Positions 1 through 64,000 of a stretch of DNA of 64,000 nucleotides are shown piece after piece. How positions within the stretch are numbered: the stretch's first letter is position 1; each line of letters begins with the position of its first letter. The notes beneath the pieces were generated by a model that did not search any database, was not told the origin of the DNA, and was given only the letters and a program-made list of their open reading frames with translations. The position numbers and the translations under genes are program-made. The stretch comes from Bilabrum cf. latius (Eukaryota), in contig OZ237742.1 in the NCBI GenBank assembly GCA_965178125.1, forward strand, positions 868,001-932,000, written 5' to 3'.

Positions 1-464
1 GCGGTCTCATGGCGTCAAGCGAGGAGGATGCCATGTCCGCAGGGTCTGATATTGGCGATGAGCTGTCATGCGCAGACATAGATGAAACATCATGTGACGT
101 TGGAGAAGAGCTGGGAGAGAAGGAGGGCGCCAAGCTGGGATGGGAGGCCGGGTTCAGGGTCGGAGGGTACGTGGGTGGCGAGATCGGCAGGCGGGCGGGA
201 GCAAAGGCTGGCACTGAGCATGGCAGTGAAGTAGCATACAACATCGCTTCCGATCACTTCGATGGAAGTGACAATACATGTATGGGCGAAGCAAGTGGGT
301 GGGCCTAGGAAGGCTTTCTGGACAAGCAGGGCAAGGACAAGGCGTGGCTGGCGCAGCTGTGCAAGGACAAGCCGTGGCTGGATTACAAAGAGATTGTGTG
401 GTATTGGGATGAGCAGGAGAGAGAAGAGAAGCAGTCCGAGGAAGCCCCGTCCAAGGAAGCGTGA
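1..464 (+). CDS. Tandem-array glycine-zipper protein, copy A (5' truncated by the window edge); TAG at 306 read as Q
   Basis: The frame of ORF 9..308 continues through TAG into EGFLDKQGKDKAWLAQLCKDKPWLDY...SKEA-TGA, matching the other copies. Confidence 0.85.
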
Positions 465-1149
465 TGGGCTCACTGGCACCTTGGGATGCAGCAGCCTGCG
501 TTCCATGACCGGTCTTGCACTGGCCAATTCTGTACAATGTGGTAAACTACTCGCCATCCTTGCCCGAGCAAGGTCCCTCGATCTAGCACCTCACCACCTC
601 ACCCATAGCCACAGCATATCAGCGGCCTACTCCCTCCACCTGCTGGTGGTGTGTGCCAGAGGCAGGCCCTCAGCGCCTCGACTTGTTGAGTGCACACGGG
701 ACGCCAAGGACATGGAGGAGGAGGATGATACCCTTGCAGGGCTGAGGCTGGTCATTGCTAGCCACTGTGCAGCCGCGCCAGTGCCAGTCCGCATCAGGCT
801 CACCGGCCAGGCCGGGACCAGCCAGCCAGCCAGGCAGTCCAACAGCTCGGCGGTAAATGCACGCAACAACGCCGAGCGGAGCGAGGTCCTCGAGCCGTCC
901 CGAACACACACCACTGGCAGAAGCCAAACCAGAGACTGTGAGTGTACAAGAAACGATTTCGATTCATATCATTCGATTTGGTCTGAATGCTCCATCTGTT
1001 GCCTAGAATCGAATCACAGTTGAATAGAGATGATCTGCTGCGACTTGATGATGCTCGCTCCTCGCCGATCCTCGCAGTGCCTGTGTTATCCCACCACAGG
1101 CAAGCTACTTGCGATCGCGTCCTTGTCACGTTGTCGAAATAGCATCATC

Positions 1150-2358
1150 ATGCGGATCGGCATCGACACTCTAGCCCGACACGCCGGTCGAAGGATGGCT
1201 CAAGCAATCAAGGGCAGGACAGCCAGCGGCATGATGATGATGCCTCGCCAGCTCTGCATGCGGTCCATCGCCGGATCGGCCAGAGCTCTCCATACCATTG
1301 ACACGCCCCAGCATGACCCGCACACCGAGCCACATCTAGACTCGCAAGACGCCCAAAGCCCGGTCGTCGACCTCCCAAGCCCAGGCAGCCAGGACCACGT
1401 GATGCAGGCGGCCAGCCAGGCCCTGGGCTCCCTGCAAGAGGCATCAGCCAGCGCCAGCGAGGCTGTGGCACGCATGGATGCATTCGTCGCCGCCGCCGAG
1501 ACAGCCGCGCCCGCCCATCAGGCGCTGGCGGCGGCCGAGGAGGCGGTGCGGGCGTCGATGAAATGCATGGAGCTGGACGGGAAGGCGAGCATGGCGGTTG
1601 ATCCAGGTGCGGCCAGCTCTGTGGGCCAGTATGTGGATGCGCTGGGCCCGGCGGAGGATGCGCTGAGGCAGGTGCGTGCGTCGGCAGAGAAGGCGGGCGC
1701 TGCTGCGGATGCGATGCTTCGTCACATGGAGGGTCTGGGCATGGAGGCGAGCCGGGCGGCGGGGGAGGAGGCCGGCAGTGGGGTGCTGTCTTGGGAAGAT
1801 GGGGACGAGGATGAGAAGGAAAAGGTAGAGGAAGAAATCAATTCAGCAATTAACGATGTATTGATGCTCAAATGCGAGCAGCGAGGATACGAGTGCGGTC
1901 TCATGACGTCAAACGTGTTTCATGCCTAGGATATTGGGTCTGATATTGGCGACCAGCTGTCATGCGCAGACATAGATGAAACATCATGTGAGGTAGGAAG
2001 AGAGCTGGGAGAGAAGGAGGGCGCCAAGCTGGGATGGGAGGCCGGGTTCAGGGTCGGAGGGTACGTGGGTGGCGAGATCGGCAGGCGGGCGGGAGCAGAG
2101 GCGGGCGCTGAGCATGGCAGTGTAGTAGCCTACAATGTTGGTTGGGAGCGGCGCTAGGATTGCAACAAGGACTTTATGAGTGCCGGCGAGTCGTCCGCTT
2201 TCAAAGGTTGGCATGATAAGCAGGGCAAGGACAAGGCGTGGCTGGCGCAGCTGTGCAAGGACAAGCCGTGGCTGGACTACGAAGAGATTGTGGAGTATTG
2301 GGATGAGCAGGAGAGAGAAGAGAAGCAGTCCGAGGAAGCCCCGTCCAAGGAAGCGTGA
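1150..2358 (+). CDS. Tandem-array glycine-zipper protein, copy B (~402 aa; possible mitochondrial presequence); TAG at 1927 and 2155 read as Q
   Basis: ATG 1150 (MRIGIDTLARHAGRRMAQAIKGR...RALHT) stays in one frame to TGA 2356-2358, with only TAG interruptions. Confidence 0.85.
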
Positions 2359-3043
2359 TGGGCTCACTGGCATCTTGGGATGCAGCAGCCTGCGTTCCAT
2401 GACCGGACTTGCACTGGCCAATTCTGTACAATGTGGCAAACTACTCGCCATCCTTGCCCGAGCAAGGTCCCTCGATCTAGCACCTCACCACCTCACCCAT
2501 AGCCACAGCATATCAGCGGCCTACTCCCTCCACCTGCTGGTGGTGTGTGCCAGAGGCAGGCCCTCAGCGCCTCGACTTGTTGAGTGCACACGGGGCGCCA
2601 AGGACATGGAGGAGGAGGATGATACCCTTGCAGGGCTGAGGCTGGTCATTGCTAGCCACTGTGCAGCCGCGCCAGTGCCAGTCCGCATCAGGCTCACCGG
2701 CCAGGCCGGGACCAGCCAGCCAGCCAGGCAGTCCAACAGCTCGGCGATAAATGCACGCAACAACGCCGAGCGGAGCGAGGTCCTCGAGCAATCTCGAACA
2801 CACACCACTGGCAGAAGCCAAATCAGAGACTGTGAGTGTACAAGAAACGATTTCGATTCATATCATTCGATTTGGTCTGAATGCTCCATCTGTTGCCTAG
2901 AATCGAATCACAGTTGAATAGAGATGATCTGCTGCGACTTGATGATGCTCGCTCCTCGCCGATCCTCGCAGTGCCTGTGTTATCCCACCACAGGCAAGCT
3001 ACTTGCGATCGCGTCCTTGTCACGTTGTCGAAATAGCATCATC

Positions 3044-4252
3044 ATGCGGATCGGCATCGACACTCTAGCCCGACACGCCGGTCGAAGGATGGCTCAAGCA
3101 ATCAAGGGCAGGACAGCCAGCGGCATGATGACGATGCCTCGCCAGCTCTGCATGCGGTCCATCGCCGGATCGGCCAGAGCTCTCCATACCATTGACACAC
3201 CCCAGCATGACCCGCACACCGAGCCACATTCAGACTCGCAAGACGCCCAAAGCCCGGTCGTCGACCTCCCAAGCCCAGGCAGCCAGGACCACGTGATGCA
3301 GGCGGCCAGCCAGGCCCTGGGCTCCCTGCAAGAGGCATCAGCCAGCGCCAGCGAGGCTGTGGCACGCATGGATGCATTCGTCGCCGCCGCCGAGACAGCC
3401 GCGCCCGCCCATCAGGCGCTGGCGACGGCCGAGGAGGCGGTGCGGGCGTCGATGAAATGCATGGAGCTGGACGGGAAGGCGAGCATGGCGGTTGATCCAG
3501 GTGCGGCCAGCTCTGTGGGCCAGTATGTGGATGCGCTGGGCCCGGCGGAGGATGCGCTGAGGCAGGTGCGTGCGTCGGCAGAGAAGGCGGGCGCTGCTGC
3601 GGATGCGATGCTTCGTCACATGGAGGGTCTGGGCTTGGAGGCGAGCCGGGCGGCGGGGGAGGAGGCCGGCAGTGGGGTGCTGTCTTGGGAAGATGGGGAT
3701 GAGAAGCAGAAGGAAAAGGTAGAAGATATCATATTCGATAAAATCTATCACCGACTAGAAGTGAAGTGCGAGCAGCAGGGATACGCGTGCGGTCTCATGG
3801 CGTCAAGCGAGGAGGATGCCATGTCCGCAGGGTCTGAGATTGGCGATGAGCTGTCATGCGCAGACATAGATGAAACATCATGTGACGTTGGAGAAGAGCT
3901 GGGAGAGAAGGAGGGCGCCAAGCTGGGATGGGAGGCCGGGTTCAGGGTCGGAGGGTACGTGGGTGGCGAGATCGGCAGGCGGGCGGGAGCAAAGGCTGGC
4001 ACTGAGCATGGCAGTGAAGTAGCATACAACATCGCTTCCGATCACTTCGATGGAAGTGACAATACATGTATGGGCGAAGCAAGTGGATCGGCCTAGGAAG
4101 GCTTTCTGGACAAGCAGGGCAAGGACAAGGCGTGGCTGGCGCAGCTGTGCAAGGACAAGCCGTGGCTGGATTACAAAGAGATTGTGTGGTATTGGGATGA
4201 GCAGGAGAGAGAAGAGAAGCAGTCCGAGGAAGCCTCGTCCAAGGAAGCGTGA
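3044..4252 (+). CDS. Tandem-array glycine-zipper protein, copy A' (~402 aa); TAG at 4094 read as Q
   Basis: Same layout as copy B shifted by 1894. Its variable segments nearly match copy A where they can be compared. Confidence 0.85.
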
Positions 4253-4937
4253 TGGGCTCACTGGCACCTTGGGATGCAGCAGCCTGCGTTCCATGACCGG
4301 ACTTGCACTGGCCAATTCTGTACAATGTGGCAAACTACTTGCCATCCTTGCCCGAGCAAGGTCCCTCGATCTAGCTCCCCACCACCTCACCCATAGTCAC
4401 AGCATATCAGCGGCCTACTCCCTCCACCTGCTGGTGGTGTGTGCCAGAGGCAGGCCCTCAGCGCCTCGACTTGTTGAGTGCACACGGGGCGCCAAGGACA
4501 TGGAGGAGGAGGATGATACCCGTGCAGGGCTGAGGCTGGTCTTTGCTAGCCACTGTGCAGCCGCGCCAGTGCCAGTCCGTATCAGGCTCACCGGCCAGGC
4601 CGGGACCAGCCAGCCAGCCAGGCGGTCCAACAGCTCGGCGATAAATGCACGCAACAACGCCGAGCGGAGCGAGCACCTCGAGCCGTCCCGAACACACACC
4701 ACTGGCAGAAGCCAAATCAGAGACTGTGAGTGTATGAGAAACGATTTCGATTCATATCGTTCGATTTGGTCTGAATGCGCAATCTGTTGCCTCGAATCGA
4801 ATCACAGTGGAATAGAGATGATCTGCTGCGACTTGATGATGCTCGCTCCTCGCCGATCCTCGCAGTGCCTGTGTTATCCCACCACAGGCAAGCTACTTGC
4901 GATCGCGTCCTTGTCACGTTGTCGAAATAGCATCATC

Positions 4938-6131
4938 ATGCGGATCGGCATCAACACTCTAGCCCGACACGCCGGTCGACGGATGGCTCAAGCAATCAAG
5001 GGCAGGACAGCCAGCGGCATGATGACGATGCCTCGCCAGCTCTGCAAGCGGTCCATCGCCGGATCGGCCAGAGCTCTCCATACCATTGACACACCCCAGC
5101 ATGACCCGCACACCGAGCCACATCCAGACTCGCAAGACGCCCAAAGCCCGGTCGTCGACCTCCCAAGCCCAGGCAGCCAGGACCACGTGATGCAGGCGGC
5201 CAGCCAGGCCCTGGGCTCCCTGCAAGAGGCATCAGCCAGCGCCAGCGAGGCTGTGGCACGCATGGATGCATTCGTCGCCGCCGCCGAGACAGCCGCGCCC
5301 GCCCATCAGGCGCTGGCGGCGGCCGAGGAGGCGGTGCGGGCGTCGATGAAATGCATGGAGCTGGACGGGAAGGCGAGCATGGCGGTTGATCCAGGTGCGG
5401 CCAGCTCTGTGGGCCAGTATGTGGATGCGCTGGGCCCGGCGGAGGATGCGCTGAGGCAGGTGCGTGCGTCGGCAGAGAAGGCGGGCGCTGCTGCGGATGC
5501 GATGCTTCGTCACATGGAGGGTCTGGGCTTGGAGGCGAGCCGGGCGGCGGGGGAGGAGGCCGGCAGGGGGGTGCTGCCTTGGGAAGATGGGGATGATAAG
5601 GAAACGGAAGAGGTAGTGGAACAAATCAATTCAGCAATCGACCATGTATTGAAGCTCAAATGCGAGCAGCGAGGGTACGCGTACGGACTTGGGGCCTCAA
5701 GCGAGGAAGATGCCGAAGAAATTGGGTCTGAGATTGGCGATGAGCTGTCAAGCGCAGACATAGACGAAACATCATGTGAGGTTGGAGAAGAGCTGGGAGA
5801 GAAGGAGGGCGCCAAGCTGGGATGGGAGGCCGGGTTCAGGGTCGGAGGGTACGTGGGTGGCGAGATCGGCAGGCGGGCGGGCGCAAAGGCTGGCGCTGAG
5901 CATGGCAGTGAAGTAGCATACGAAGTCGGTGACAGTCTACGCTACGATGAGAACAAGCATTACATGGGAATTGGAAAGTGGTCCGCTGTTGAAGGTTGGC
6001 AGGACAAGCAGGGCAAGGACAGGGCGTGGCTGGCGCAGCTGTGCAAGGACAAGCCGTGGCTGGACTACGAAGAGATTGTGGAGTATTGGGATGAGTAGGA
6101 GGCGGATAAAAATCAGTCCAATGAGACGTAA
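4938..6131 (+). CDS. Tandem-array glycine-zipper protein, copy C (~397 aa); TAG at 6096 read as Q; ends at TAA
   Basis: TAG 6096 aligns with CAG in the other copies. The frame continues EADKNQSNET to TAA 6129-6131. Confidence 0.8.
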
Positions 6132-6279: not shown

Positions 6280-7482
6280 TCATATGGCACCGCCCAGCAT
6301 GGTTTCTACAACAAGGAACAACACGGCGGCGTTCGGCACGACTCTGATGAGGTGAGCTGGCATGCCCCCGTAGAGACCAGCCATCCCCTCCTCCCTCGCG
6401 ACTCGGACCAGGCAGTGCGCCACCCCGCGGTACCTCGCCTTGCTCCCAGACTCCCTCTGTTCCCTCATTCTAGTGCGGATCACTTCCTGGGGATAAACCG
6501 AAGCCGCGGCCACCAGCTTGGCCCCCGCCCCGAGCACAACTGCCTCAAGCCCACCGAATCGGTGCGCGGCGCGCGCCTGGGCTGGGGTCATGCCCTTCGG
6601 TGAAAGAGAAGAATATCCAGCTGTAGTGGTGCTGGCAGTGGCAAGGCCACCCTCGGTCATGGACACGTCTGGGTACTTGACGTGCAGGTAGCCCGCCTTG
6701 AGCTGCTGGTACAGAGCGAACTGAATCATGGATTCCGCAGCCCCGAGATACGACGCCGTTAGGCCTCTATAGAATCCAGTTATACCTTCCTCTTTGTAAA
6801 TTGACTTGAACGCGTGCCACAAGCCAGTGTAGTTAGTTCGTTTAGCCGCGGTGGACAGCCATCTTCGCCGCAGTACTGCTAGAGGGCCGACACCATCACC
6901 GCGTATCCCCTATCGCCACGTTGAAACAGTTAAATGCTGAGAAGCACGCAATTGCGATGGTATCTGGGATTCTACTGCGCTTGAGCGGCACAGTCTGCCT
7001 GTAGCAGTGCTGAACGAGCGTTTGCTGTTGCCGCCCGCTTTACTCCATTTGGCTACGCCAAGGCTTTCTGCATCCTGCTAAAGCTATAATCGCGTCTTGA
7101 CAACCCAGATAGGAGACGTAGCTGTTGCTGCAGCAAAACTTCCGATGCACGCAGCCAATGCGTGCTGTGTTGTGCCAATGATGCCAACTGATGCGAGTGC
7201 TTGCTTGGTTTTGTTGTATGCGTAGAACTAGCAGGCCCGAGCAGGGCCTACTCCAATGATAGAAGCGCCAACTCCTCGAAAGAGGCCTATTGGCCCCTCT
7301 TGCTTGACGATCTATCGCAAGATTCGGTCAACGCGCATGTTCCTTACTTCTGCAGTCACTCCAGCGGATTGCTGCCTCGTCTTGACTATCTCCAGCCAGT
7401 TAGTGGATATTGCTGCAGCTGTTCCACCAATTAGGCCGGCAAAGAAGTGGTCCATGTCGGATGGCTTCTTGGAGGAGGCCAT
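6280..7482 (-). CDS. Mitochondrial carrier, Rim2/SLC25A33/36 (pyrimidine nucleotide carrier)-like, ~400 aa; 5 TAG=Q
   Basis: Three carrier repeats in one frame: TNWLEIVKTRQQ, SPIWVVKTRL*L*, YPQEVIRTRMRE, plus EG..GLFRG/GFYRG/GLYGG motifs. TAGs at 7312, 7228, 7084, 7078, 6910; TGA at 6280. Confidence 0.92.
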
Positions 7483-7617: not shown

Positions 7618-10600
7618 TCACATGCCTGGTGGGGCGCTGCTGGCAGCTGCGGACGCAGGTTTCGCCACGGGCACCTTGTCGTCCCCAGCTGCAGCAGCCC
7701 CACCACCTGCACTTGCTGATGCTGCCGGCCGTCCATCACTGTCCCGTCCCTTCAACTTTACTCCCTTATCCTCCACCTTACTTTCTACGTCTGGTCTCCC
7801 CGCTGCCTCCACCAGCCCAAATGCTCTCTTATTGTTGGCCTCGAGTTGGGCGAGCGGGACCCCCATCTCGATCCCTTCGAACCGAGCGACTGCTCGGTAC
7901 AAAGGGAGCACCAACGCGGTCGCAAATCCGGAGGAACTCCTAGGCTTGGGCACCGGGCCCTTTCTGTCATTCATGGGCCCGATGGGCAGCTCCCTCTCCT
8001 TCTCCTAGTCCCCCTGCAGCCAGAACTCCTGGGTCACCAGGTCCGTCCAACGGGTGTTGAGTGTCCAGTCCCTCGCCGGGTTGGAGATGTCAAAGGCGTG
8101 CAGGATGGCACCCATGAAAAGCGACTCGTCCTTCGAACCGAACTCAACGGCTAATTTTTGAGAGACCCCCTCGCCATCGGCGCCCGCCCCAGGACCCCCA
8201 CCCTCGCTTTCCCCTGCCTCCACTTCTGCTTCGATTCGATCCAGTGCGTCCTCCAGCGCGCCAACCATCTGGAAGTGCCCCGCGTTATCCGTGTGCAGAA
8301 CCATAGAGGTGATCAGCTTGCGGCACTGCGCGTGCGTGGAGGGGTCGTGGCACGCGTCACCGAGCACGTCGGCATCGGAGCAGTCCCTCATGAGGAAGAA
8401 GAGCGTGGCGCAGTGCATGTTCTCCAAGGGACTCTGGTCGTTGTACCTCAGAGCAAGGTCGTGCTGAGTCGCAGTCAGGAAGGGGTTGTTCACCCCGAGG
8501 TGGCCAGCGTCGTGCGTGGCTGCGGCCAGCACCATGCACAACGAGGACCGCGGGTTGATGTGTTCCCTCAGCTTGCCCCCGCACAGCCCAAATAGCACAC
8601 CCATGGTCACATCGGCAGCATGCAACGCGTTGTGGTAGGGATTGGCCCTAGAGTAGCGGCTCGCGATCTCGCGGCCGAGGTTCCGGGCCGTGGTCGGCTT
8701 GATCCCGAACTTGCCGGCACCAGCCACCTCCATGAGCCCGCCGTAGCATGCAGCGACCAACGTCTCGTGCCCCACGCTCCTCCCCTTGGATCGGCCACCC
8801 GCCAGTTCCTCCAGCGACCAAGACATGAATCGCATGCCCAGCTCATCGTCTTCCTCCCCGCACCACCCAGACGACGCCACGGCGTGCCCGGACGAGGCCA
8901 GCCGGTGCCCCATGGATTCCAGTCGCTCGATCGTCTCTTTGCTCCTTTGGCCCGGGCCATGCAAGCAAGACTGGTCCGGGACGTACGTCTCCTTCACCCT
9001 GTTCCACATCATCTCCGCAGCGCTCTCGTCGGATGCTGACAGCCCGTGCATCCGCAGGATTACCCGGTTGGCCTCAAATATGTCAAACCCAAGCCAGTTG
9101 TTCCATCCGGGGCTCAGCACCTCCTTCTCCTGCTGCGCGATGGGCAGTTCGTACTGCATCGCAGCATCCCGAAGGGCGGGCATGGCCATACTCTCAGTGT
9201 GGAATATGATGCCTTCCGCGTGGACGCGCACGGCAGTCGCGGAGGAGCGTCGCCTGTCAGACACGCTCGTAGTGGAGGAAGCCGACCCGCGCGCCGCTCT
9301 GCCGGTGGACGAGCTCCTGCCCATGGCTGCCTTGAGCCTTCGTTTCGTACCTGCGATGCCTTTCTGGTAATCCTTATCACCACCAGCAGCAGCAGTAGCA
9401 GCGGCATCGTCGTTGCCACCGGCGGTACCTTGGTCACCGGACTTGTTCTCTAGCCCCGGCGGCTTGCCTCCGCCGAGCATGCTGCCCATCCGCATCACCT
9501 TGCCCACCAACTTGCCAACTGCCCGGAACTTTTCCTTTCCCGACAGCCTCACGCCGTACAATACGCCCTTGGATTGCTGCGTGGAAGTCGTCTGCTGCTC
9601 GAGAAAGGAGCGGGTGCGGCTGTCGATAGCAAAGGGCATCGAGGCTATCTCCATGTCGAGCGACGATCTCTTCCTGTGGATGCGGGCCTCCGATAGGCTA
9701 TCGCGCCTCGTTCTCGGCGTTGCAACTTCGGAGGGAGCTTCCACGAGCGGCTGGGCAAAGTTGTAAGGTGTAGTGCCTGCAAGCGGTCCGGCGCTGTGGA
9801 ACGAGGAAGTCTTGGAGTAGGCGCGGCCCCCTGAGGAATCGATATACTCTGCCGCCAGGACGTTTACTAGTGCGGCGAGGAGAGCGACGTCTTCTCCCGT
9901 GAAGGAGAGAGCGCTGCTACTGCTGTTACCGGCTGCACTTTCGCTGCCGCCTTCTCGTGCGACATTGGGCGCTCGACTCTTGCGCATGCCTGTGCGCCCA
10001 TCCTGTGGGGACTGTCCAGTCTATAGACCATCTCCCTGCGAAGCCGCGGAAGAAGCAGCGGCCTGGTCGCCTGTGCTTGCCTCCTTCCTCTCTGGAATAT
10101 CCGCGCTCCTGGATGGTGGATGGGCGCGCACGGCATCCGATCGGCGGTATGACACGCCAAAATCGGACGTTCGTCGCGGTCCGCGCGGCCTTGTTTGCTT
10201 CCCTGGCCCAAACAGACTGTGCTACAGCACTGTGCTTGCGGACTGCTGGCGGGTCATGACGGACTTCGATCCGCCAGTACCCGCGCCTGCGCCTGCACAC
10301 CCGAGCGTTTCTTGCTCCTGCTGCATGCGCAGCCGGAGCAGCCGCCTAGGCGCGGCGCCTCCACTTTTAGGTTCCGTAATTGCACCCCTGGTGCTCCGTG
10401 GCGTCGTGCGACCGCTTTCACCACCCCCTAGAGAATGGGACGCAGGCACACTGGGGGTCGGTGTGGGCAAGCCAAGCGAGGGCACGCTCACCCGCCTTCC
10501 CTGCGCCGAGACGATCTCGATCATACCACCGAGCCCGGGCCTGCTGAAAGTAGACCTCGCATCCAACGAGCTGCCCCGGCTTGTTCCCTGGCCGGAGTCC

Positions 10601-11970
10601 TGCAGCAGCCGTCCCATCGGGATCGGCGGAGGCGCCAGACCCACAGGAGGCCCTGCCTCCGCCGACGTCGCACCTCCTCTGTTCCCTGGATCGTTGTTCC
10701 CTGAGGCCGGCACTGGAGCTGGCATCTAGCCCGGAGATACGTTGCCATCGAACACTGCTGCCGGTGAGGGTGTGTCCGTCCCTCTAGTATCCACGGACTA
10801 TCCATCCTACCCCGTGCCCATTTCTGCGACCAAACCGCACAAGTCGGCTAACCGTGCGACCACCCTGGCCAGAGCGGCAATGGCCGCGGGCCCTGCGGAC
10901 GGAGGCGCCCCCGCCAGGCCCCTAGAGTCCGCGCTAGCAGCTGCTGACCCGCCCCCTGACCCTCTTGCTCCGCGCCTGACCCCCAGTCCGGCTCCGGCTC
11001 CACCCTACCCCTGCAGTGCCAGACCATCCACGTCCACATCCACGTGAGTCGCACCGGCGTAATCCTCCGAGGCTGCTTCAGACCCGGGGGAGGAACTCTT
11101 GGGTCGCAATACTGCCTGCTACCCACCGCTCGCGGGCGGTTGCCGGGGTGACGGTGAGGATGAGGAGGGGGCTGCTGCTGCATGTCGTACCCCTCCTCCT
11201 CCTAGTGGGGTTTGCGCCGGGGATATCTATCCTTTGCCGGAGTGTCCTTGCAGCTGGACGCCAAGGGAGGCACACGAAGCGTCGTTAGAATTCAATGTAG
11301 TTGCATCGGCATCAAAAGCAAACGCAATGCCTTTCTTGTGTCTGGCGTCGTCGCTGCTATCGGTTGCGTTCGATCGCCTGCTGCCAGGTGTGCTCGCCGG
11401 CTCGTGCTCGTCCACTTCGCCGATCTCACCAAGACTCGCTCGCGTTGCAGAATGCTGTCCAATTGATGAAATTCGAGAGCGAGTCTAGTTTCGCGATGTA
11501 GCCAGCGGCACAGGAGGCTGCGCCGGGCTAGAGCAGTCCGCTTCGATCTAGCCCTCCCCTCGCATCAGCGTGGCTAGTCGTTCCAAGCGTCCATGCGCGG
11601 TTGCCGGACTTGGAGACACCGCTTCAAGAATCGAGGCAGAGCTTGCAGACCGCTTCAACTGACCAGATTCTTGTGGTCCTGCCAAAGTAAGCAAGCCGAC
11701 CTGTGCTTCGCGGGCGGCCTGCGAAGCCGCATCATCGTCAGAAAGCCCCTAGCGAATAAGTTCACTGGCACGAAGTGCAGCTGCTACAGCCTGAAGCACA
11801 TCATCGCCGATTGCGTCCCTCAACTGGGCCTCTTGCACCTGAACGCCTAGATGTGTCCCAAGCATGCTGGGCGAAGTGGCTCGCTTGGTTTCCTTCATAT
11901 GGCGCAATACTGCGCTGATTCGCCGAGCAAGCTATCTATCCCAGTCATCGCCTTCAGCAGCGCTTGCCAT
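7618..11970 (-). CDS. Class I cyclic-nucleotide phosphodiesterase with a long low-complexity N-terminus, ~1450 aa; 13 TAG=Q
   Basis: PDEase motifs YHNALHAADV, HDAGHLGVNN, SPLENMHC, HAFDISNP, EFWLQGD*EKERELPIGPMNDR. Single frame from ATG 11970 (in-frame TGA upstream at 11995) to TGA 7618, with only TAG interruptions. Confidence 0.9.
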
Positions 11971-12299
11971 AATTGGATCTATGGTCTGGTTGTTTCAACG
12001 AATAACAGTGTCTGGTAAACGCCATCACTAGAAAACCACACGTTACCACGACGTCGCACTTGCATGGTCGCACGCATACACAGCTTAGATTCATATCAGA
12101 CGTAGTTCTGGGCAGTACCAGTTTCTTCCATACTTTTACCGACACGGCCACGACCAGATCGTATGGGCCCTCATACCTCCGAGGGCCACGGCTCACATTG
12201 TCTGCCTGATGGCCGCAGCCAGAATGTGGCAACGTATTGGCCAGCTTGCCAGTGGTCCACGGCTACCACTCTAGTTTGCGATTGAAGGCTCGCCAACAC

Positions 12300-16037: not shown

Positions 16038-16742
16038 CTGCAATTGTTCATGGACGCTGCCGTTCTTACTGTTAATTTCTAGCTATGAGTAGAAGTGGTC
16101 ACACGTCTGCCCATTCCGAACGCGAAAGATCTGCCACCGGTGACGATTTCAAGGACATCGTGTTGCACGTTCCGACAGAACTCGTGCAGTAGATTCTGCA
16201 GGAGACTCCAGTGGAATCTGGCGTACAGAGAATGCTATAGCTTCAGGTATGACTTCCAATCTTGCTTAGCCGTCTTGCCAGCCTCTCTGAATTGAGGCAA
16301 AAGTCTTGGTACGTGTATCGCAATTTCTGTGTGGCTTTCTTGCTTTGCAGGGACTCAAGTCTGGAAAGCCGACGTTGGTTCTTGTAGAAAAGTAGAGGGG
16401 TGGGTCCTTCACGGAAGTTTCCCGCTACACAGGCTCGGAGGCGTTGCTGAAACGTTCTACTGTTGCAATTGACCGAGGCGCGGTTACCCCAGAACAGAAA
16501 GTTGACATTGCTTCAGTGAGCGTTTCAGATGCCAGTTACGAGTTTAGTTCCGACGAAAGCAACGCTGCTATGGGAGACAGCGTAGCTGCCGGCATCAGCT
16601 CGGGGCTGGCAGTCGACCACTGAGATGCGGCTTTGGAAGTTTTTGCGACGTCAGAGACGTCCAATTGCTCGTTTTGGGCTGCTTGACGATACAATGGGTT
16701 ACCTTGAGTATACAAGTATTGCAGCATCAAGCTGCTGGCCAG

Positions 16743-49377: not shown

Positions 49378-49643
49378 ACTCGCACCCTACCTCAAGAAAA
49401 TGGATACTTGGGCCGGAAAGCGTCGGAATGAGAATGAGAACAATTTGTTGGAATCGAACACAATCTATCATCTGGGGAAGCCAAGCAATCACTTCAAAGG
49501 CTACGCGCCAAGCAAGCTGCGGCTTTCGCCGGAGCTTATGGCAGCAGTCGGCCGAAGTCGTCCGCTGACACGTCAGTTGAGAGAGGTTGTCAGCAGGATC
49601 TCTGTTCACAGAGCCCGAGCCAGGCGGGGGTGTGGGTGCATCT

Positions 49644-50609
49644 TCATGCGAACGAGATGGTCTGGAACTCCATGTCCGGCGGCACCAGCATGCGGATGAA
49701 CTCCTCGTACGATATCACGCCGTCCCTGTCCCTGTCGTTGAGTTCGATATACTCCTTGAGCTTCTCCTCGTTTTCTCCCTTGAGCACCTCCCGCACTTCG
49801 TCGATCCCCAGCACGCCATCGCCGTTCACGTCGTACTGGCAGAAGGCCCACCAGATGTTGTTCTAATGATTGATCATCTGCAGCTCCGCAGTGGCTTGGA
49901 TGAACTCGTCCAGATCCACCAGGCCGTCACCATCCGCGTCGATCGTAGTCATCAGGTCCTTTACACCCGATGCAGCCGTCACCAGGCCCATCTTCCGGAG
50001 AGCGTCCGACATCTCCTCCACGCTGATGCACAGGTCAGTGTTCCGGTCGATGGCATGAAACTGCGCCCGAAGCTTCTACAGATCCTCGGCTGACAGCGTG
50101 GAAGACACCAGGCGGATGGCCTCCCGTCGCAGCTTGTTGTTGGCGTTGAAGTTGCGCATGCTGGTGACGATGTTGGTGTCGAGCGGCACATCAGGCGCCA
50201 CGCCGTCCGACCTAACCCACGGATGGTTCAGCGCCTGCGCGATGGTGTACCGGCGGTACGGCTGTTTCTCCAACAGGCCGCTCACGAGCTCCCTCGCGGG
50301 AGCGGATATCTTGTTCCAGGCGCCCCCGCTGAAATTGAGCGTGTCGTTACGGATGGACCGATACACGTCCTGCGCCTTGGTGGCGCTGGCACCGAATGGG
50401 ACCGTCCCGGACAGCAGCAGGTACAGGTTCACGCCTAGCGACCACACGTCGCAGGCAGACGTGTACCTCCTCTGAAGCACCTCGGGGGCCAGGAAGAAAG
50501 CGGATCCTACGCCGTCCGTCATGATGTCATCCACTTTGTCGATCTTTGTGGCGAGCCCGAAGTCAGCGATCTTGAGGTGCGCCCTTCCCTCCGTGCTGGC
50601 GAAGAGGAA

Positions 50610-50642
<33 letters not shown>

Positions 50643-52409
50643 CCTCGAGTGGCACCACGCGATGCCCTCCAGCATCTGGCGGAACAGGAACGATGCAACC
50701 TTCTCACTGAAGTGGCTGCTGCGCATCACGTACTTCATGAGGTCGCCGCCGCTGCAGTACTCCATCGCGATGTACACGTGCATGTCGTCCTCAAGCAAAT
50801 CCTGCACCTCGACCACGCTGTCGTGTCCCCGCACGCGGTTCATGATGTCGGCTTCGTGATGCCCGTTGCTCTTGCTGTCCTCCACCACCTTGCTGCCCGC
50901 GAACTTGCCCCCTAGTGCCTTGCCTGCCTTGCCTGGCGTCTCCTTTCCGTCTCCCGCGCCACCCTTGGCTACCACTTCAACTCCAGCACCTTCCCCGCTC
51001 TTCTTCTTGTCCTTGTCTTTGTCCTTGTCCTCGTCCCCGGCGCCATCGGTGAATCCAGTCGCGGCTTTCTCGTCCTCGCTCGGCTTGTCGCCGTCCTTGT
51101 CCTTTCCCTTGCCCTTGCCACCCGCAGCGGCACTCTATTTGACCGCCGCCAGCGCCGCCGCCTTGGTGGCTGCATCCAGCGTGCCCTCGCCCTCCGATGC
51201 CCTCCGCGTGGCAGCCGCGTTGGCGAGCTGCATGGCCCTGCGGGCCACCGTCGACGCCCGGACCACCTTCCGTGCCGCCTTCTTCGCGACTGACCGCACG
51301 TCCGGCTTGATCTTCTTGATGGCAAAACGCTGGCTCTCCGGCCCGTCTGCGATTTTGTATGCCCTCCAGACCTCGCCGAAAGACCCCTTACCAAGGATTT
51401 TCTCAAGCTTGTACACGTCGTTGATCGAGCCCCCGATTCGCTTCAGCGGTACGCTGCCCGCCGTGCCCGTGCCGTGCTGGGGATCGAACTCGGGCAGCTG
51501 GGCCTCGCCGTAGTCCTTGAATGGGACGGCCCCTGCTTCACCCTCCGCCTCGCCCTCGCCCTCGCCCTCACCCTCACCCCCGGCTGCTGTTGCATCAGTG
51601 GCATCACCGTCGCCACCAGCACCGCTCGCGGCTGCGTTCCCTCTCTCCTCTGCTGCAGTGCCAGCCCCTTTCTCAGCAGTCGTTCTGCTACTGGCATCCT
51701 CATCCGCCCCACCCTTCGCGCCCTCCTCTGCATCCCCATCGCCAGCGCCTGCTGCACCAGCTGCGCTTGCATCGCCACTCCCATCGCCCCCTTTCTCGCC
51801 GGTTCCCGCGACACCAGCACCGGACCCGTCGACATCCCCTGGTGACTCCTTTGTCTCTTTCATGGCATTTGCGCTGCGCCCGTCTCCAGTTGTAGCAGAG
51901 CCACCGGCGGCCGCTGTTGATGGCTTCGTCGGTGATGCAGATTCATCTCTCGTTCCACTCGAGCCGCCCGGTCCGGCTGCCCGTGGCGCGTCGCTGTCAG
52001 TGGCCGCAAATGGTTGTTCTCCTCCTCCAGATCCTCCAGTGCTACTCTAAATCTATTGACGGCCGGAATCGCCCATGGGCGTGCTGCCAGGCAATTGCTG
52101 TGGGATCCCCTTGACTATCCCAGTGCTCTACTGTTGCTTTTTGCCCCCATCTGATCTACTTGTATCAGTAATTTTGGGCTGCACATGCCCTTCATGTACG
52201 GCCTGGCCTTCCTTGCTGACCCCGGCTTCATACGATCCACCTTGACGCAGTGTCGAGTTCGGTGCTGGATCAGACTGGCCAGGACCTGCAAAACGGGATG
52301 GAGCTGCATACAATCAAAGTTAAAGCAAACATTGTAATAATGCCAAGAGGAAACACTCATCGTGCGCACACTCACCGACTGCGACCTGCGACGAGCTCCC
52401 ACACCCCAT
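49644..52409 (-). CDS. CDPK: Calcium-dependent protein kinase (kinase + 4 EF-hands) with an N-terminal MGCGSS acylation motif; complement(join(49644..52285,52376..52409)), ~891 aa; 6 TAG=Q
   Basis: LGKGSFGEV, FAIKKI, HRDLKPDNFL, IADFGLA, APE, DVWSLGV; EF-hands DRNTDLCISVEE, DADGDGLVDLDE, DVNGDGVLGIDE, DRDRDGVISYEE. 90-nt GTGAG...GCAG intron. Confidence 0.92.
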
Positions 52410-61789: not shown

Positions 61790-62060
61790 CAATGATTTAT
61801 TCCTGTCCCGCGCATATCTACGCTAGGGTGTGCTGCAGGCCGCCACAGGCCTTGACAATAATATCTGATTTAACGCTATCCCCCCAGAACAGCCAGACCA
61901 TCACTGGCTGGCGGCTATTTGCGGTGATTTTCTACGATTTGTTGCATTTATTAGGCTCATCTAGTCTCCAAACATCTATTTGCATAGCCCATTGCCTGGT
62001 TGTAGACCGAGAGGATCCAGATCTGCGTATTTTGTGAAGTAAGCATTTGTGGGGGTAAAG

Positions 62061-62878
62061 ATGGATCGCGGCGACGAAGCTGGTCGTCGTCTTTCTGCAT
62101 CGCGAGATCGAGAATAGGGCAGTTTTCATGGTTAGTCTGATTCTCGACGAGATTGGGGCCAGAGTCGGGATAGATCAGGGTATCCCGGGGCCCACGACCG
62201 CAGTAGGAGCGATTTGAGCAGAGATTCGCAGCAAGCAGGCAATAGCCGGTTTTCGAGAAGTGACCACTCTGGACCAGTAAGCCGAGATAATAATGCGCGG
62301 TATAGGCCTGCTCAGCGGGCAGGTGGACGTGTTAGGGACGACAGCAATCGGGGCATGGATGCTGCCCAGGACGGCAGATGGCATCATCACTCTCTTCCCA
62401 ATCAGGCAGCATCATCGAGAATGAGAATGACCGGGTATGGATACGTCCCTCTCCCCCCTCCCCCAATGCCGTAGTTCCAGGGCATGCGTATACAAGGAGC
62501 TGCTCCGCCCCCGCCACCGAATGGCGGTCGATTCTCGCAGGGAGCCAGCATGCCTCGAGGCGGCGCAGTGGGTGGCCAATTGGGCTTCGGTATGGGAATT
62601 CCTCCATAGTTGACACATGGCATGCCTAGTATGGGCATGGGCGGCATGCCAGGTATGGGGTCGGGCTTTGGAATGGGAATGGGAATGGGAGTGGGAATCG
62701 GCATGGGTGGAGCCTTCGCGATGGGCAGCGCTCTGTCACCTGCGAGCGGCTTCGGGGGGGGCATGGGAGCTGATGCGGGCCATAGAATAGAGCGAATGCA
62801 CTCCATCCAATCACGCGATGGCCTTCCGCGCGACTCGCGAGGCCAAGGTGAAGGGCGAGGGCAAGGGCCTGGCCATGC

Positions 62879-62921
<43 letters not shown>

Positions 62922-64000
62922 GTACACCAAGGAAGCAGCCCGCCGAGGAGAGGCCTTGTGGTTGAGCCGCCACCGCCACCTGCCGGGCAGGCAGAAGAAT
63001 TAGTGGCTAGAGCTGGCATGGCTGGCGGCGGAGCATAGGCCGGCGCGTCAGCCGCATCGTCGTCCTCCTCCTCGTCTGCCGCTGCAGCCGCCGGCAACGA
63101 ATGGAACCAGGCTCAGGCCGGCCAGGTGCCCTCGTCTGGCCACTACCAGACAACCGACCGCAGGCTCGGACCGGATCCGCAGTATCACGGTTACGGGGGG
63201 AACCAAGCCAGGCGGTTCTCGATGCAATCGAGCAACGGTGGCGTGGGTCCAGCTGAGCGCGAAGGGCAGCCAGGCAGCGTAGATCAAAGGGCTGCGGGGG
63301 GACTGCAGCCCGGACAGCTGCCGAACTTCCCGCTCGGTAACGGACCGTCGCACGGCCGGGCAGCGGACAGCAGGCGGGACATGATGGCATGGAATGTTGG
63401 CGCCGGTGAGTCGCGGCTGTCCGTGTGGGAGCGCCACCTGCCCGGCGAAGACGCGAGCGCAGCAGCTGGCGTTGCCACCATGCAGCCGGTGCCCCCAGCC
63501 AGACATCCCTCTAGACAGTCGTCGCATGGCAGCGAGTCGGTGGCGGTGCATGGCTGGAGGAGGAGGTTCATCCCGGGGCCGGACCACACCGTCGTTGGTC
63601 TCGACGGCGCCCTCATGGCCGACACGCAGATCAAGTGGAAGCAAGGTCTACTTCTGGTAAGGATGCTCACGGTGCTCCGATGGGGTATAACACCCCTGCT
63701 GCTACGCCTCCCTCGGTCCCTCGCCGGCCCCATCATTTTTTCTCTCTCTGCTTGCTGTCTCCCCTACTGATATCGCAGCCTCAGCAGCTGCTTGCAAACG
63801 GAGTGTGGCAAGCGCACTGGCGCATCGGAGGGGGTACCTTCTCCGAGGTGTATGCCTTGCGTAACACCAAGACAAGGACCACTCTCGCTGCAGCAAAGGT
63901 GGAGCGGGCTGGACAGAGGCCCACGGTGGAGCTTGAGTCCGTTGTGCTAGCCTATCTGCAGAGGTACCCGTTCTTCCCAAGGCTCTATGGCCTCGTGTGA
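62061..64000 (+). CDS. CK1-group (tau-tubulin-kinase-like) protein kinase, 5' part, with a long Gly/Met/Gln-rich N-terminus; intron ~63657..63778; continues beyond the window
   Basis: WRIGGGTFSEVY...AAAKVERAGQRPTVELESVVLAYLQRYPFFPRLYG (kinase subdomains I-IV). Five TAG=Q upstream. The final GTGTGA probably starts another intron. Confidence 0.72.
62880..62918 (+). repeat. (CAG)13 polyglutamine microsatellite
   Basis: Uninterrupted CAG run in the kinase reading frame. Confidence 0.95.

What the first reader, a model, noticed from the sequence alone, without database searches (positions are those of the whole stretch)
1..64000. Non-standard nuclear genetic code: UAG = glutamine, with UAA and UGA still stops
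Seen: every gene model in the window contains in-frame TAG (about 120 by manual count), after which the same frame and domain continue. Gene ends fall at TGA (18 models) or TAA (3 models), and none requires TAG as a stop. Established: most eukaryotic code variants reassign UAA and UAG together. UAG-only reassignment (NCBI table 15 pattern) is rare; examples I know are the fornicate Iotanema spirale (Gln), a rhizarian (Leu) and some ciliates. Inference: this GC-rich protist does not look like a ciliate and resembles a bicosoecid stramenopile, so it may be an independent, possibly undescribed reassignment. It would need a tRNA-Gln(CUA) and an eRF1 that ignores UAG but still reads UAA.
Basis: partly seen in the sequence, partly recalled or inferred. 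Interest (0 to 1): 0.96.

Follow-up and report, generated by a model that had tools for sequence, protein, structure and literature searches.

The report
UAG codes glutamine in a bicosoecid relative
This GC-rich protist, whose nearest named relative is the flagellate Cafeteria, reads the stop codon UAG as glutamine while still stopping at UGA and UAA, a rare code variant for which I found no published report in stramenopiles.

Summary
Across 21 gene models (about 18,000 codons) there are 123 in-frame TAG codons and no in-frame TAA or TGA. Sixteen models end at TGA and 5 at TAA; none needs TAG as a stop.

- **TAG means Gln.** Of 13 TAG codons in the four gene regions compared with homologs, 9 fall in well-occupied alignment columns. 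Three of those columns are near-invariant Gln (119/120, 116/120, 110/120). Pooled log-odds decoding gives Gln +16.2 against Glu −3.7, and 0 of 10,000 random column sets reach that score.
- **The TAGs are real.** Contigs from four studies agree with the window over 20 kb apart from one substitution and one single-base deletion. Spliced contigs, which must be RNA-derived, carry TAG unchanged.
- **A relative shares the code.** A metagenome contig with an 82%-identical CDPK has 8 in-frame TAG in the neighbouring ORF. TAG pairs with CAG four times in conserved context. That ORF ends with TAA exactly where the window's ortholog ends with TGA.
- **Placement.** Cafeteria is the best named hit for three of four genes, and a single-gene tree groups the window with bicosoecids.

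The code equals NCBI table 15. Eight literature searches found no stramenopile case. The tRNA-Gln(CUA) and eRF1 could not be examined.

The parts
1..64000 (.). Whole window: GC-rich (about 60%), compact eukaryotic nuclear DNA. It holds 21 gene models with 123 in-frame TAG, no in-frame TAA or TGA, and ends at TGA (16) or TAA (5).
6280..7482 (-). Mitochondrial carrier (SLC25A33/36 / Rim2-like) with 5 in-frame TAG. The TAG at 7084-7086 lies in a column with Gln in 119/120 homologs, and the TAG at 7078-7080 in one with Gln in 67/120. The TAG at 7228-7230 lies in a Tyr/Asn column. The TGA stop at 6280-6282 coincides with the homologs' C-termini.
24713..28385 (-). SNF2-family ATPase in at least 3 exons (SNF2-rel_dom 26715-28385, middle ORF, Helicase_C 24713-25663). 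The TAG at 27882-27884 in the GLGKT-x-Q motif has Gln in 116/120 homologs. The TAG at 27135-27137 in the TGTP-x-QN motif has Gln in 110/120. The gene ends with TGA at 24713.
49644..52313 (-). Calcium-dependent protein kinase (Pkinase plus 4 EF-hands) with 6 in-frame TAG. The TAGs at 50076-50078 and 49863-49865 are CAG in the 82%-identical ortholog on L001, in identical context. TGA stop at 49644-49646.
47899..49467 (-). 522-aa ORF of unknown family with 3 TAG in the stop-to-stop frame. Its ortholog on L001 has 8 in-frame TAG, 2 of which pair with CAG here. The window gene ends with TGA (47899-47901) at the same alignment column where the ortholog ends with TAA.
19808..24567 (+). R1R2R3 Myb gene of 3 exons (19808-20085, 20305-20422, 20569-24567; GT..AG introns), 1464 aa, with 8 in-frame TAG. 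The three at 19871, 19916 and 19934 lie in exon 1, which contigs of runs X5 and X6 join to exon 2 with no differing letters. TGA stop.
16085..16623 (+). Small spliced gene (144 aa; intron 16247-16350, GT..AG) with in-frame TAG at 16190, 16238 and 16393, on both sides of the intron. A spliced contig of X5 covers it with 0 differences. TGA stop at 16621. It is convergent with the ankyrin gene.
16743..18689 (-). Ankyrin-repeat gene with 6 in-frame TAG, ending at TAA (16743-16745). The transcript contigs end 5-45 nt past this TAA, and the DNA beyond belongs to the convergent + strand gene.
28548..31217 (-). RING-finger protein with 5 in-frame TAG. The C-terminal zf-C3HC4_3 domain ends 6 residues before the TAA stop (28548-28550).
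7618..11994 (-). Cyclic-nucleotide phosphodiesterase with 13 in-frame TAG in the ORF. Only one lies in the catalytic domain, in an uninformative column. TGA stop. A contig of X5 covers 8220-11967 with 0 differences.
36073..45849 (+). 3258-codon ORF with 24 in-frame TAG and no TAA or TGA. The off-frames of the same stretch hold 7 TAA each. Low-complexity protein with a weak Cep192_D4 match at its C-terminus.
1024..6131 (+). Three tandem paralog copies (1024-2358, 2918-4252, 4797-6131; 90.5-92.5% identical). The TAG at 6096-6098 in copy 3 is CAG in both other copies. Copies 1 and 2 end with TGA; copy 3 ends with TAA 5 codons earlier.
46316..47827 (-). Second ankyrin-repeat gene with 3 in-frame TAG and a TAA stop (46316-46318).

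Best explanation
The organism is a GC-rich heterotrophic stramenopile whose nearest named relative is Cafeteria (Bicosoecida). Its nuclear code reads UAG as glutamine, efficiently and without ambiguity. UGA is the main stop codon and UAA a minor one. This is the NCBI table 15 pattern.

Shown here:
- UAG is frequent inside conserved genes.
- It is present unchanged in DNA from independent studies and in spliced transcripts.
- It sits at positions where homologs have Gln.
- It interchanges with CAG between two related genomes.
- UAA and UGA mark the gene ends.

Inferred from established mechanism (PMC5304391, passages read): decoding needs a tRNA-Gln with anticodon CUA, which pairs with UAG but not with UAA. 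That anticodon is one base change from the normal CUG. It also needs a glutaminyl-tRNA synthetase that accepts this tRNA, and an eRF1 whose N-domain no longer recognises UAG but still reads UAA and UGA. Read-through by a leaky near-cognate tRNA cannot be the mechanism, because single ORFs hold up to 24 UAG.
For: 1. ORF structure. The longest ORF rises from 691 to 3258 aa when TAG alone is read as sense. Pfam domains lie in these ORFs.

2. Meaning.
- I compared four gene regions with homologs: 120 for the carrier, 77 for the PDE, 150 for the CDPK and 120 for SNF2. TAG was entered as X. Of the 13 TAG codons, 9 lie in columns at least 50% occupied.
- Gln counts in those columns are 119/120, 116/120, 110/120, 67/120, 22/145, 19/118, 16/150, 7/76 and 0/119.
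- Pooled log-odds is Gln +16.2, with Glu next at -3.7. None of 10,000 random 9-column sets reach this score (the maximum was 5.8).
- The same procedure decodes 55 of 60 sense codons correctly.

3. Relatives.
- L001 is a metagenome contig with an 82%-identical CDPK. It has 8 in-frame TAG in the syntenic neighbouring ORF.
- In conserved context TAG pairs with CAG 4 times, 2 in each direction.
- P0001 is the closest carrier relative, and it has Gln at both TAG positions of the VKTRL-Q-L-Q motif.
- In the tandem paralogs one TAG pairs with CAG in both other copies.

4. Not an artefact.
- Contigs of runs from four studies were laid on window 6200-26199. They show only one substitution (25473 C>T) and one single-base deletion (22232), both in the low-depth run X8.
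- Neither difference is at one of the TAG coordinates worked out. The other TAGs of the stretch were not cross-checked one by one.
- X5 and X6 contigs join across four GT..AG introns and carry TAG at 19871, 19916, 19934, 16190, 16238 and 16393 with 0 differences.

5. TAA and TGA are stops.
- There are 0 in-frame TAA in 17,095 codons against 116 TAG. The lowest NNA/NNG ratio in these genes is 0.16, so at least about 19 TAA would be expected if TAA were sense.
- Reading TAA as sense adds only 597 codons at ORF margins.
- The window's 522-aa ORF ends with TGA at the same column where its L001 ortholog ends with TAA.
- The carrier's TGA stop matches the homologs' C-termini. The CDPK match runs to residue 596 of 598 against 613 of 614 in the top hit.
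- The ankyrin gene's TAA is followed by a convergent gene.

6. No sign of ambiguity. TAG is not depleted near stops: 2 TAG lie within 20 codons of a stop, against about 2.6 expected from the densities (my arithmetic).
Against: - Only 64 kb plus one 4-kb relative contig could be examined, so the count of informative TAG columns is small (9, of which 4 clearly favour Gln).
- One well-occupied TAG column (carrier residue 85) is Tyr 61 / Asn 46 with no Gln. Four others are mixed.
- Between the window and L001, TAG pairs with GAG three times and with ACA, GGA and CCG once each. All of these are in diverged stretches.
- Three of four paralog comparisons were uninformative.
- No tRNA gene was found in the window or on L001, and no eRF1 was available, so the decoding machinery is wholly inferred.
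- Runs X5 and X6 are not on record as RNA. That their contigs are RNA-derived is my inference from four GT..AG joints that the X1 and X8 contigs do not show, and from uneven depth.
- The TAA-as-stop evidence is partly circular, because the ORFs were delimited by TAA. It rests on 5 gene ends and one orthologous stop position.
- There is no protein-level evidence.
Confidence: 0.9

Rival explanations
1. Both UAA and UAG are reassigned to Gln (NCBI table 6, the common eukaryotic variant). In-frame TAA is simply too rare to be seen in a GC-rich genome, and UGA is the only true stop.
For: - The genome is GC-rich, and TAA is the rarest of the three triplets (178 against 496 TAG and 797 TGA in the window).
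- After 3 of the 5 terminal TAA the frame stays open for 110-197 codons before the next TGA.
- UAA and UAG usually share a meaning (PMC11687900, passages read).
Against: - There are 0 in-frame TAA against 116 TAG in 17,095 codons. Even the most G-biased codon pair (TTA/TTG, ratio 0.16) predicts about 19 TAA, and the Gln pair CAA/CAG (0.38) predicts about 44.
- Off-frame TAA density in the same DNA is 3.46 per 1000.
- The L001 ortholog ends with TAA at the column where the window gene ends with TGA.
- The TAA of the ankyrin gene at 16743 is followed by a convergent spliced gene.
- Paralog copy 3 ends with TAA 5 codons before the TGA of copies 1 and 2.
Confidence: 0.03
2. UAG is ambiguous. It is sense inside genes but also terminates some genes depending on context, as in Condylostoma, karyorelicts or Blastocrithidia.
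For: - Such codes exist (10.1101/2022.04.12.488043 and PMC4967479, abstracts seen in the listing).
- For most of the 21 models the true C-terminus is not independently known, so a TAG stop followed by a short open tail could go unnoticed.
Against: - None of the 21 models needs TAG as a stop.
- Where the C-terminus can be checked against homologs (carrier, CDPK, the 522-aa ORF, RING), it lies at TGA or TAA.
- TAG occurs as close as 10 and 11 codons before the stop, and it is not depleted in the last 20 codons (2 seen, about 2.6 expected). Ambiguous codes show such depletion (PMC11687900, passage read).
Confidence: 0.05
3. The in-frame TAGs are not translated as written. They would be assembly errors (C>T), pseudogene lesions, intron sequence, or sites edited back to CAG in the mRNA.
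For: TAG differs from CAG by one transition. The best DNA holder (X1) may be the very sample the window was assembled from.
Against: - Contigs from three further studies (X5, X6, X8) agree with the window across 20 kb, apart from one substitution and one single-base deletion, neither at a TAG codon located.
- Spliced contigs retain 6 TAG with 0 differences.
- There are 123 TAG in 21 genes with intact domains and no in-frame TAA or TGA.
- A separate metagenome relative has its own, different in-frame TAGs.
Confidence: 0.01
4. UAG is a sense codon but codes for an amino acid other than Gln, such as Glu, Leu, Tyr, Ser or Lys, as in other UAG reassignments.
For: - Carrier residue 85 is Tyr/Asn in the homologs.
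- CDPK residue 526 (numbering of the query) is Glu in 56/145 homologs.
- TAG pairs with GAG three times between the window and L001.
Against: - Pooled log-odds is Gln +16.2, Glu -3.7, Tyr -15.6, Leu -18.4, Ser -14.6 and Lys -14.7.
- Three near-invariant Gln columns lie under TAG.
- TAG pairs with CAG in every comparison made in strictly conserved context.
Confidence: 0.01

Closest known systems
Iotanema spirale (Fornicata) nuclear code: UAG = Gln, UAA a stop (Panek et al. 2017, PMC5304391; passages read)
   Same: Only UAG is reassigned, to Gln, and UAA is retained as a stop. The organism is a non-ciliate flagellate. The predicted mechanism is a tRNA-Gln(CUA) plus an altered eRF1.
   Different: The supergroup is unrelated (Metamonada against Stramenopiles). 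That paper describes UAA as the dominant stop, whereas here TGA dominates (16 of 21) and the genome is GC-rich. Iotanema's eRF1 carries a T32G change in the GTS motif; the eRF1 of this organism was not seen.
Ciliates with UAG-only to Gln: Protocruzia tuzeti and two phyllopharyngean lineages (McGowan et al. 2024, PMC11687900; passages read)
   Same: The codon table is the same (NCBI table 15 pattern). UAG is widely used as sense and UAA is kept as a stop.
   Different: These are ciliates with GC content of 27-54%, and UAA is almost always the preferred stop. Here the organism is a stramenopile with 60% GC and a preference for TGA. The window has ordinary spliced nuclear genes.
NCBI table 6 (UAA and UAG = Gln): many ciliates, Ulvophyceae, hexamitid diplomonads, Streblomastix, Amoeboaphelidium (listed in PMC11687900, passages read)
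   Same: A stop codon is reassigned to Gln, and UGA is retained as a stop.
   Different: TAA is not a sense codon here: 0 in-frame against at least 19 expected, and it occupies gene ends.
Rhizarian exLh and a ciliate MAG (UAG = Leu); Scotinosphaera (UAG = Ser) (PMC5304391 and PMC11687900, passages read)
   Same: The meaning of UAG is uncoupled from that of UAA in a nuclear genome.
   Different: The amino acid differs. Leu and Ser score -18.4 and -14.6 here, against +16.2 for Gln.
Cafeteria roenbergensis, the nearest named relative (Hackl et al. 2020, PMC6972860; passages read)
   Same: It is the best named hit for the carrier (36% identity) and the PDE (45%). Its protein also sits in the 90%-identity cluster of the top CDPK hit, which is 59% identical to the window. 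It is a GC-rich, compact bicosoecid genome with few introns.
   Different: The passages I read of that paper mention a non-standard code only for the mitochondrion (UGA = Trp), and its nuclear genes were predicted with ordinary pipelines. The reassignment therefore seems to post-date the split from Cafeteria. I did not test Cafeteria DNA myself.

Membership tests
UAG = Gln with UAA and UGA as stops (NCBI table 15 pattern) | In-frame UAG is frequent in conserved, intact protein-coding genes | tested here: met
   123 TAG in 21 models, and all models carry at least one. Pfam domains are continuous across them.
UAG = Gln with UAA and UGA as stops (NCBI table 15 pattern) | UAG aligns with Gln in homologs | tested here: met
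   Gln +16.2 against Glu -3.7 over 9 columns. Three columns have Gln in 110-119 of 120 homologs. 0 of 10,000 random sets reach the score. TAG pairs with CAG in relatives.
UAG = Gln with UAA and UGA as stops (NCBI table 15 pattern) | UAA retained as a stop and not used as sense | tested here: met
   0 in-frame TAA against at least 19 expected. 5 of 21 gene ends are TAA. The ortholog's TAA lies at the window gene's TGA position, and a convergent gene follows one TAA. The sample is small and the test partly circular.
UAG = Gln with UAA and UGA as stops (NCBI table 15 pattern) | UGA retained as a stop | tested here: met
   16 of 21 ends are TGA. The carrier and CDPK TGA stops coincide with the homologs' C-termini.
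UAG = Gln with UAA and UGA as stops (NCBI table 15 pattern) | UAG is present in mature mRNA, neither spliced out nor edited | tested here: met
   Spliced contigs of X5 and X6 carry 6 TAG with 0 differences. That these contigs are RNA-derived is inferred from the GT..AG joints.
UAG = Gln with UAA and UGA as stops (NCBI table 15 pattern) | A tRNA-Gln with anticodon CUA is encoded | not testable with these tools
   No tRNA was found in the window (ARAGORN, Rfam) or on L001. No genome is held.
UAG = Gln with UAA and UGA as stops (NCBI table 15 pattern) | The eRF1 N-domain is altered so that UAG is not recognised | not testable with these tools
   There is no eRF1 gene in the window, and no genome or transcriptome could be searched.
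UAG = Gln with UAA and UGA as stops (NCBI table 15 pattern) | Gln is found at UAG positions in the proteins | not testable with these tools
   This needs proteomics.
UAR = Gln (NCBI table 6) | UAA is used as a sense codon alongside UAG | tested here: not met
   0 in-frame TAA in 17,095 codons, and TAA lies at gene ends.
Context-dependent stop/sense codes (Condylostoma, karyorelicts, Blastocrithidia) | The reassigned codon also terminates genes and is depleted just upstream of true stops | tested here: not met
   0 of 21 models end at TAG. 2 TAG lie within 20 codons of a stop, against about 2.6 expected. Statistical power is low with 21 genes.
Bicosoecida / stramenopile affiliation of the organism | Orthologs group with bicosoecid sequences | tested here: inconclusive
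   Cafeteria is the best named hit for 3 of 4 genes, and an oomycete for the fourth. In the carrier tree the window plus P0001 is sister to Cafeteria plus Bicosoecida sp. CB-2014, with support 0.86. This is a single-gene tree only, with no 18S and no phylogenomics.

The most novel reading that the evidence does not exclude
This would be the first nuclear genetic-code change in Stramenopiles. It would be a clade-level trait, shared by at least two species-level lineages related to Cafeteria, in which UAG became Gln on its own. It arose in a GC-rich genome where TGA, not TAA, is the main stop. That setting is the opposite of the AT-biased, UAA-dominated genomes of the other UAG-only cases. Loss of UAG stops through AT pressure (the codon-capture route) is therefore an unlikely path here, and an ambiguous-intermediate route driven by a tRNA(CUA) is favoured. 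Because close relatives with the standard code can be cultured (Cafeteria), the steps of a recent stop-codon reassignment would become open to experiment.
Probability: 0.55. Interest if true: 0.82.

Novelty: new member of a known kind. Interest (0 to 1): 0.78.

Why it matters
UAA and UAG almost always share a meaning in nuclear codes, and only a handful of lineages break this rule (PMC11687900 and PMC5304391, passages read). A further independent case in a new supergroup adds a data point on how eRF1 can tell UAG from UAA and on how readily tRNA-Gln(CUA) arises. It also comes in a GC-rich, TGA-terminating genome.

There is a practical side. Gene callers that use the standard code truncate the genes of this organism, all 21 of which in this window carry TAG. 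This fits with none of the three searches against public protein collections listing a protein the window itself encodes, and with the closest carrier relative (P0001) being an N-terminally truncated prediction. Its DNA also turns up in runs filed under several different organism labels. Mis-annotation and unnoticed contamination are therefore likely, and annotation should use table 15.

Tried and rejected
- Whole genome: none is held. Genome-wide Codetta-type statistics and searches for the tRNA and eRF1 could not be run.
- tRNA search: ARAGORN on the window and on L001, and Rfam at gathering threshold on the window, each gave 0 hits.
- PDB sequence searches with the CDPK and the carrier identified the families, but the printed alignments did not cover informative TAG columns.
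- PDE domain: only 1 of the ORF's 13 TAG lies in the catalytic domain, and its column is mixed.
- Paralog test: of 4 TAG in the three tandem copies, only 1 lies in a well-aligned stretch, where it pairs with CAG in both other copies.
- The look-up of sequencing runs: no RNA holder is listed. The RNA origin of the X5 and X6 contigs is my inference from spliced joints.
- The long-range joints (skips of 1-16 kb with sides of 20-21 letters) I took as repeat or low-complexity artefacts and did not use.
- The other loci from the metagenome scan (L002-L012, 25-36% identity) are distant kinases and were not analysed.
- The Fisher test of TAA in the ORF core against the margins (p = 4e-14) is circular, because the cores were delimited by TAA. 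I do not lean on it.
- Literature: eight searches and passages of PMC11412368 and PMC12817076 gave no report of a nuclear UAG reassignment in a stramenopile. The library lacks most subscription journals, and supplements were not consulted, so a published description may exist.
- No structure prediction, complex prediction or protein-atlas search was run, because none bears on the question.

Full report
**What the window is**

The 64-kb window is 55-66% GC and holds no tRNA or other Rfam family. Under the standard code the longest stop-to-stop ORF is 691 aa. With TAG alone read as sense the longest are 3258, 1647, 1458, 1379 and 1256 aa. Reading TAA as sense instead leaves the top of the list unchanged.

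The TAG-containing ORFs carry ordinary eukaryotic domains:
- a 3',5'-cyclic nucleotide phosphodiesterase
- a mitochondrial carrier
- a calcium-dependent protein kinase with four EF-hands
- an SNF2 ATPase with Helicase_C in a downstream exon
- two ankyrin proteins
- an R1R2R3 Myb protein
- a C-terminal RING protein
- p25-alpha, Usp and SDE2-like proteins

I arrive at 21 gene models, which fill about four fifths of the window.

**Check of the observation**

In-frame TAG numbers 123 in about 17,970 codons. Every model has at least one TAG, and one ORF has 24.

In-frame TAG density is 6.75 per 1000 codons, near its off-frame density of 8.64. In-frame TAA and TGA are absent, though off-frame they occur at 3.46 and 16.99 per 1000.

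Gene ends are TGA in 16 models and TAA in 5. The difference comes partly from the SNF2 gene, whose first ORF ends at an exon boundary and whose true end is the TGA at 24713. No model needs TAG as a stop.

**What TAG means**

I collected homologs for four genes:

| Gene | Homologs |
|---|---|
| Carrier | 120 |
| PDE | 77 |
| CDPK | 150 |
| SNF2 | 120 |

I aligned them with the window proteins, with TAG entered as X so that the alignment could not be drawn towards Gln. Thirteen TAG codons fall in the four query regions, and nine are in columns at least half occupied.

The results column by column:
- Three columns are near-invariant Gln. These are the carrier signature VKTRL-Q (119/120), the SNF2 motif GLGKT-x-Q (116/120) and the SNF2 motif TGTP-x-QN (110/120).
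- A fourth column is Gln in 67/120.
- Four columns are mixed, with Gln among the commoner residues.
- One (carrier residue 85) is Tyr 61 / Asn 46 with no Gln.

A pooled log-odds decoding gives Gln +16.2 nats, Glu -3.7, and every other residue below -11. None of 10,000 random sets of nine columns reaches the Gln score (the maximum was 5.8). The same procedure decodes 55 of 60 sense codons correctly; the five misses are near-ties on few columns.

**Evidence from relatives**

This is a 4,084-bp contig of 58% GC that encodes a CDPK 82% identical to the window's over its whole length. Next to it lies the ortholog of the window's neighbouring 522-aa ORF, so the arrangement is syntenic.
- The L001 CDPK has no in-frame TAG, and at the two TAG positions of the window's conserved region it has CAG, in identical sequence context.
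- The L001 neighbour ORF has 8 in-frame TAG. Two lie in conserved context, and both are CAG in the window.
- The remaining pairs (GAG three times; ACA, GGA and CCG once each) lie in diverged stretches.

P0001 is the closest carrier relative. It shares the window protein's lineage-specific insert and has Gln at both TAG positions of the VKTRL-Q-L-Q motif. Among the three tandem paralogs at 1024-6131, the one TAG that lies in a well-aligned stretch is CAG in both other copies. So at least one further lineage uses TAG as sense, and TAG and CAG interchange as synonymous codons would.

**Are the TAGs real, and are they in the mRNA?**

Fifteen of the 16 listed runs, from ten studies, hold part of the stretch, and seven of them hold at least half of its sampled words. 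None is on record as RNA. I laid contigs of four runs from four studies on window 6200-26199.

Over these 20 kb the only differences are one substitution (25473 C>T) and one single-base deletion (22232). Both are in the low-depth run X8. Neither is at one of the TAG coordinates I worked out; I did not cross-check the other TAGs of the stretch one by one.

The four runs fall into two kinds:
- X1 has flat depth and no spliced joints. It may be the source sample.
- X8 is likewise unspliced.
- X5 and X6 have very uneven depth. Both join across the same four short introns with GT..AG ends: 15403-15517 on the minus strand, 16247-16350, 20086-20304 and 20423-20568.

I therefore take the X5 and X6 contigs to be RNA-derived. 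This is my inference, not something on record.

The spliced contigs carry TAG unchanged:
- The Myb gene, once spliced, gives a canonical R1R2R3 domain. Three of its TAG (19871, 19916, 19934) sit in exon 1, inside the contig that joins exon 1 to exon 2.
- A small 144-aa gene has TAG on both sides of its intron (16190, 16238 and 16393) in one spliced X5 contig with 0 differences.
- X5 contigs also cover the carrier and most of the PDE with 0 differences.

Assembly error, editing and splicing-out are thus excluded for this stretch.

**The status of TAA and TGA**

In 17,095 codons of 19 ORFs there are 116 TAG and no TAA. The A-ending to G-ending ratio of the other codon pairs runs from 0.16 to 0.97, and CAA/CAG is 0.38. 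A sense TAA would therefore be expected about 19 to 44 times or more.

This count is partly circular, because the ORFs were delimited by TAA and TGA. The independent points are these:
- The ORFs so delimited hold complete proteins of up to 3258 codons, while each off-frame of that stretch has 7 TAA.
- Reading TAA as sense adds only 597 codons at ORF margins.
- The 522-aa ORF ends with TGA in the window and with TAA in L001, at the same alignment column.
- Paralog copy 3 ends with TAA 5 codons before the TGA of copies 1 and 2.
- The RING domain ends 6 residues before a TAA.
- The TAA of the ankyrin gene at 16743 is followed within about 120 nt by the TGA end of a convergent spliced gene, and the transcript contigs stop 5-45 nt past that TAA.

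The TGA ends of the carrier and the CDPK coincide with the homologs' C-termini.

TAG shows no depletion just upstream of stops: 2 lie within 20 codons, against about 2.6 expected from the densities. This speaks against a context-dependent code, although 21 genes give little power.

**Who is it?**

The best named hits are Cafeteria roenbergensis for the carrier (36% identity) and for the PDE (45%). The top CDPK representative, at 59% identity, belongs to a 90%-identity cluster that contains a Cafeteria protein. For SNF2 the best named hit is an oomycete.

A FastTree of the carrier family puts the window plus P0001 (support 1.0) sister to Cafeteria plus Bicosoecida sp. CB-2014 (support 0.86). 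It remains a single-gene tree, so I call the placement probable, not settled.

**Mechanism**

Shown:
- UAG is translated inside genes, since intact conserved proteins require it.
- It stands for Gln.
- It is present in spliced mRNA.
- UGA and UAA end the genes.

Inferred, following Panek et al. 2017 (PMC5304391, passages read):
- A tRNA that reads UAG but not UAA must have the anticodon CUA.
- The glutaminyl-tRNA synthetase must accept this tRNA, because GlnRS uses the anticodon as an identity element.
- eRF1 must have lost UAG recognition while keeping UAA and UGA. In Iotanema a T32G change in the GTS motif is the candidate, and in the rhizarian exLh an L69A change.

None of these three components could be examined here.

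**Comparison and novelty**

The code equals NCBI table 15. According to McGowan et al. 2024 (PMC11687900, passages read), nuclear UAG-only reassignment to Gln is known from these lineages:
- Iotanema spirale
- Protocruzia tuzeti
- two phyllopharyngean ciliate lineages

The same paper lists UAG as Leu in a rhizarian and a ciliate MAG, and as Ser in Scotinosphaera.

No stramenopile is listed. Eight full-text searches found none. The Cafeteria genome paper mentions a variant code only for the mitochondrion (PMC6972860, passages read). The library lacks most subscription journals, supplements were closed, and the runs date from 2025, so an existing description cannot be excluded.

The case differs from the known ones in lineage and in setting. 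Here the genome is GC-rich and TGA is the main stop, whereas UAA dominates in the other UAG-only lineages.

**Verdict**

- Confidence: I put 0.9 on UAG = Gln with UGA and UAA as stops.
- Novelty: a new member of a known kind.
- Interest: 0.78. It is a clear, publishable genetic-code variant in a new supergroup, but it is not a new kind of code, and its machinery is still unseen.

Noticed in passing
window 1-6131 (+): Tandem triplication of a unit of about 1.9 kb (copies 1024-2358, 2918-4252 and 4797-6131; 90.5-92.5% nucleotide identity). It encodes a 444-aa protein with no Pfam family and an Ala/Glu-rich C-terminal half. The window starts inside a further upstream unit.
   Followed up: partly
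window 15403-15517 (-), 16247-16350 (+), 20086-20304 (+), 20423-20568 (+): Four short GT..AG introns (104-219 nt) shown by spliced contigs of two runs. Most genes in the window appear to be intronless or to have few introns, and coding sequence fills about 80% of the window.
   Followed up: partly
window 16621-16745: Convergent gene pair. The TGA stop (16621) of a + strand 144-aa gene lies about 120 nt from the TAA stop (16743) of the minus-strand ankyrin gene. Their transcript contigs overlap by about 13 nt (16698-16710).
   Followed up: partly
window 36073-45849 (+): A 3258-codon low-complexity (Ser/Ala/Gly/Gln-rich) ORF. Its only hint of a domain is a sub-threshold Cep192_D4 match at the extreme C-terminus (E = 6e-4, below the gathering score).
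   Followed up: no
window 50400-50800 (-) (CDPK) and 6700-7000 (-) (carrier): Lineage-specific low-complexity inserts lie inside conserved folds. One of about 130 aa, rich in Ala, Lys, Gly and Asp, sits in the kinase N-lobe of the CDPK and is also present in L001. One of about 100 aa sits between carrier repeats 2 and 3 and is shared with P0001.
   Followed up: partly
window 6200-12100 (runs): The same DNA (43-100% of the sampled words) is held by runs filed under four different coded organism labels from four studies. Smaller shares occur in runs labelled as algae and protist metagenomes. The organism may often be co-cultured with, or contaminate, other samples.
   Followed up: no
window 23542-24208 and 18873-19539: Local depth spikes appear in all four runs (for example 39 against about 15 in X1). 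Many loose ends and short-sided long-range joints lie around 23710-23750 and 17050-17080. This fits short GC-rich, low-complexity repeats shared with other loci.
   Followed up: no
protein P0001 (Logan prediction): The closest carrier relative is predicted only from an internal Met onwards. It lacks the first carrier repeat, and its contig is only 1302 nt. This could be a truncation at an in-frame TAG by a standard-code gene caller, or simply the contig end. I could not check it, because the tool that fetches encoding contigs is closed.
   Followed up: no
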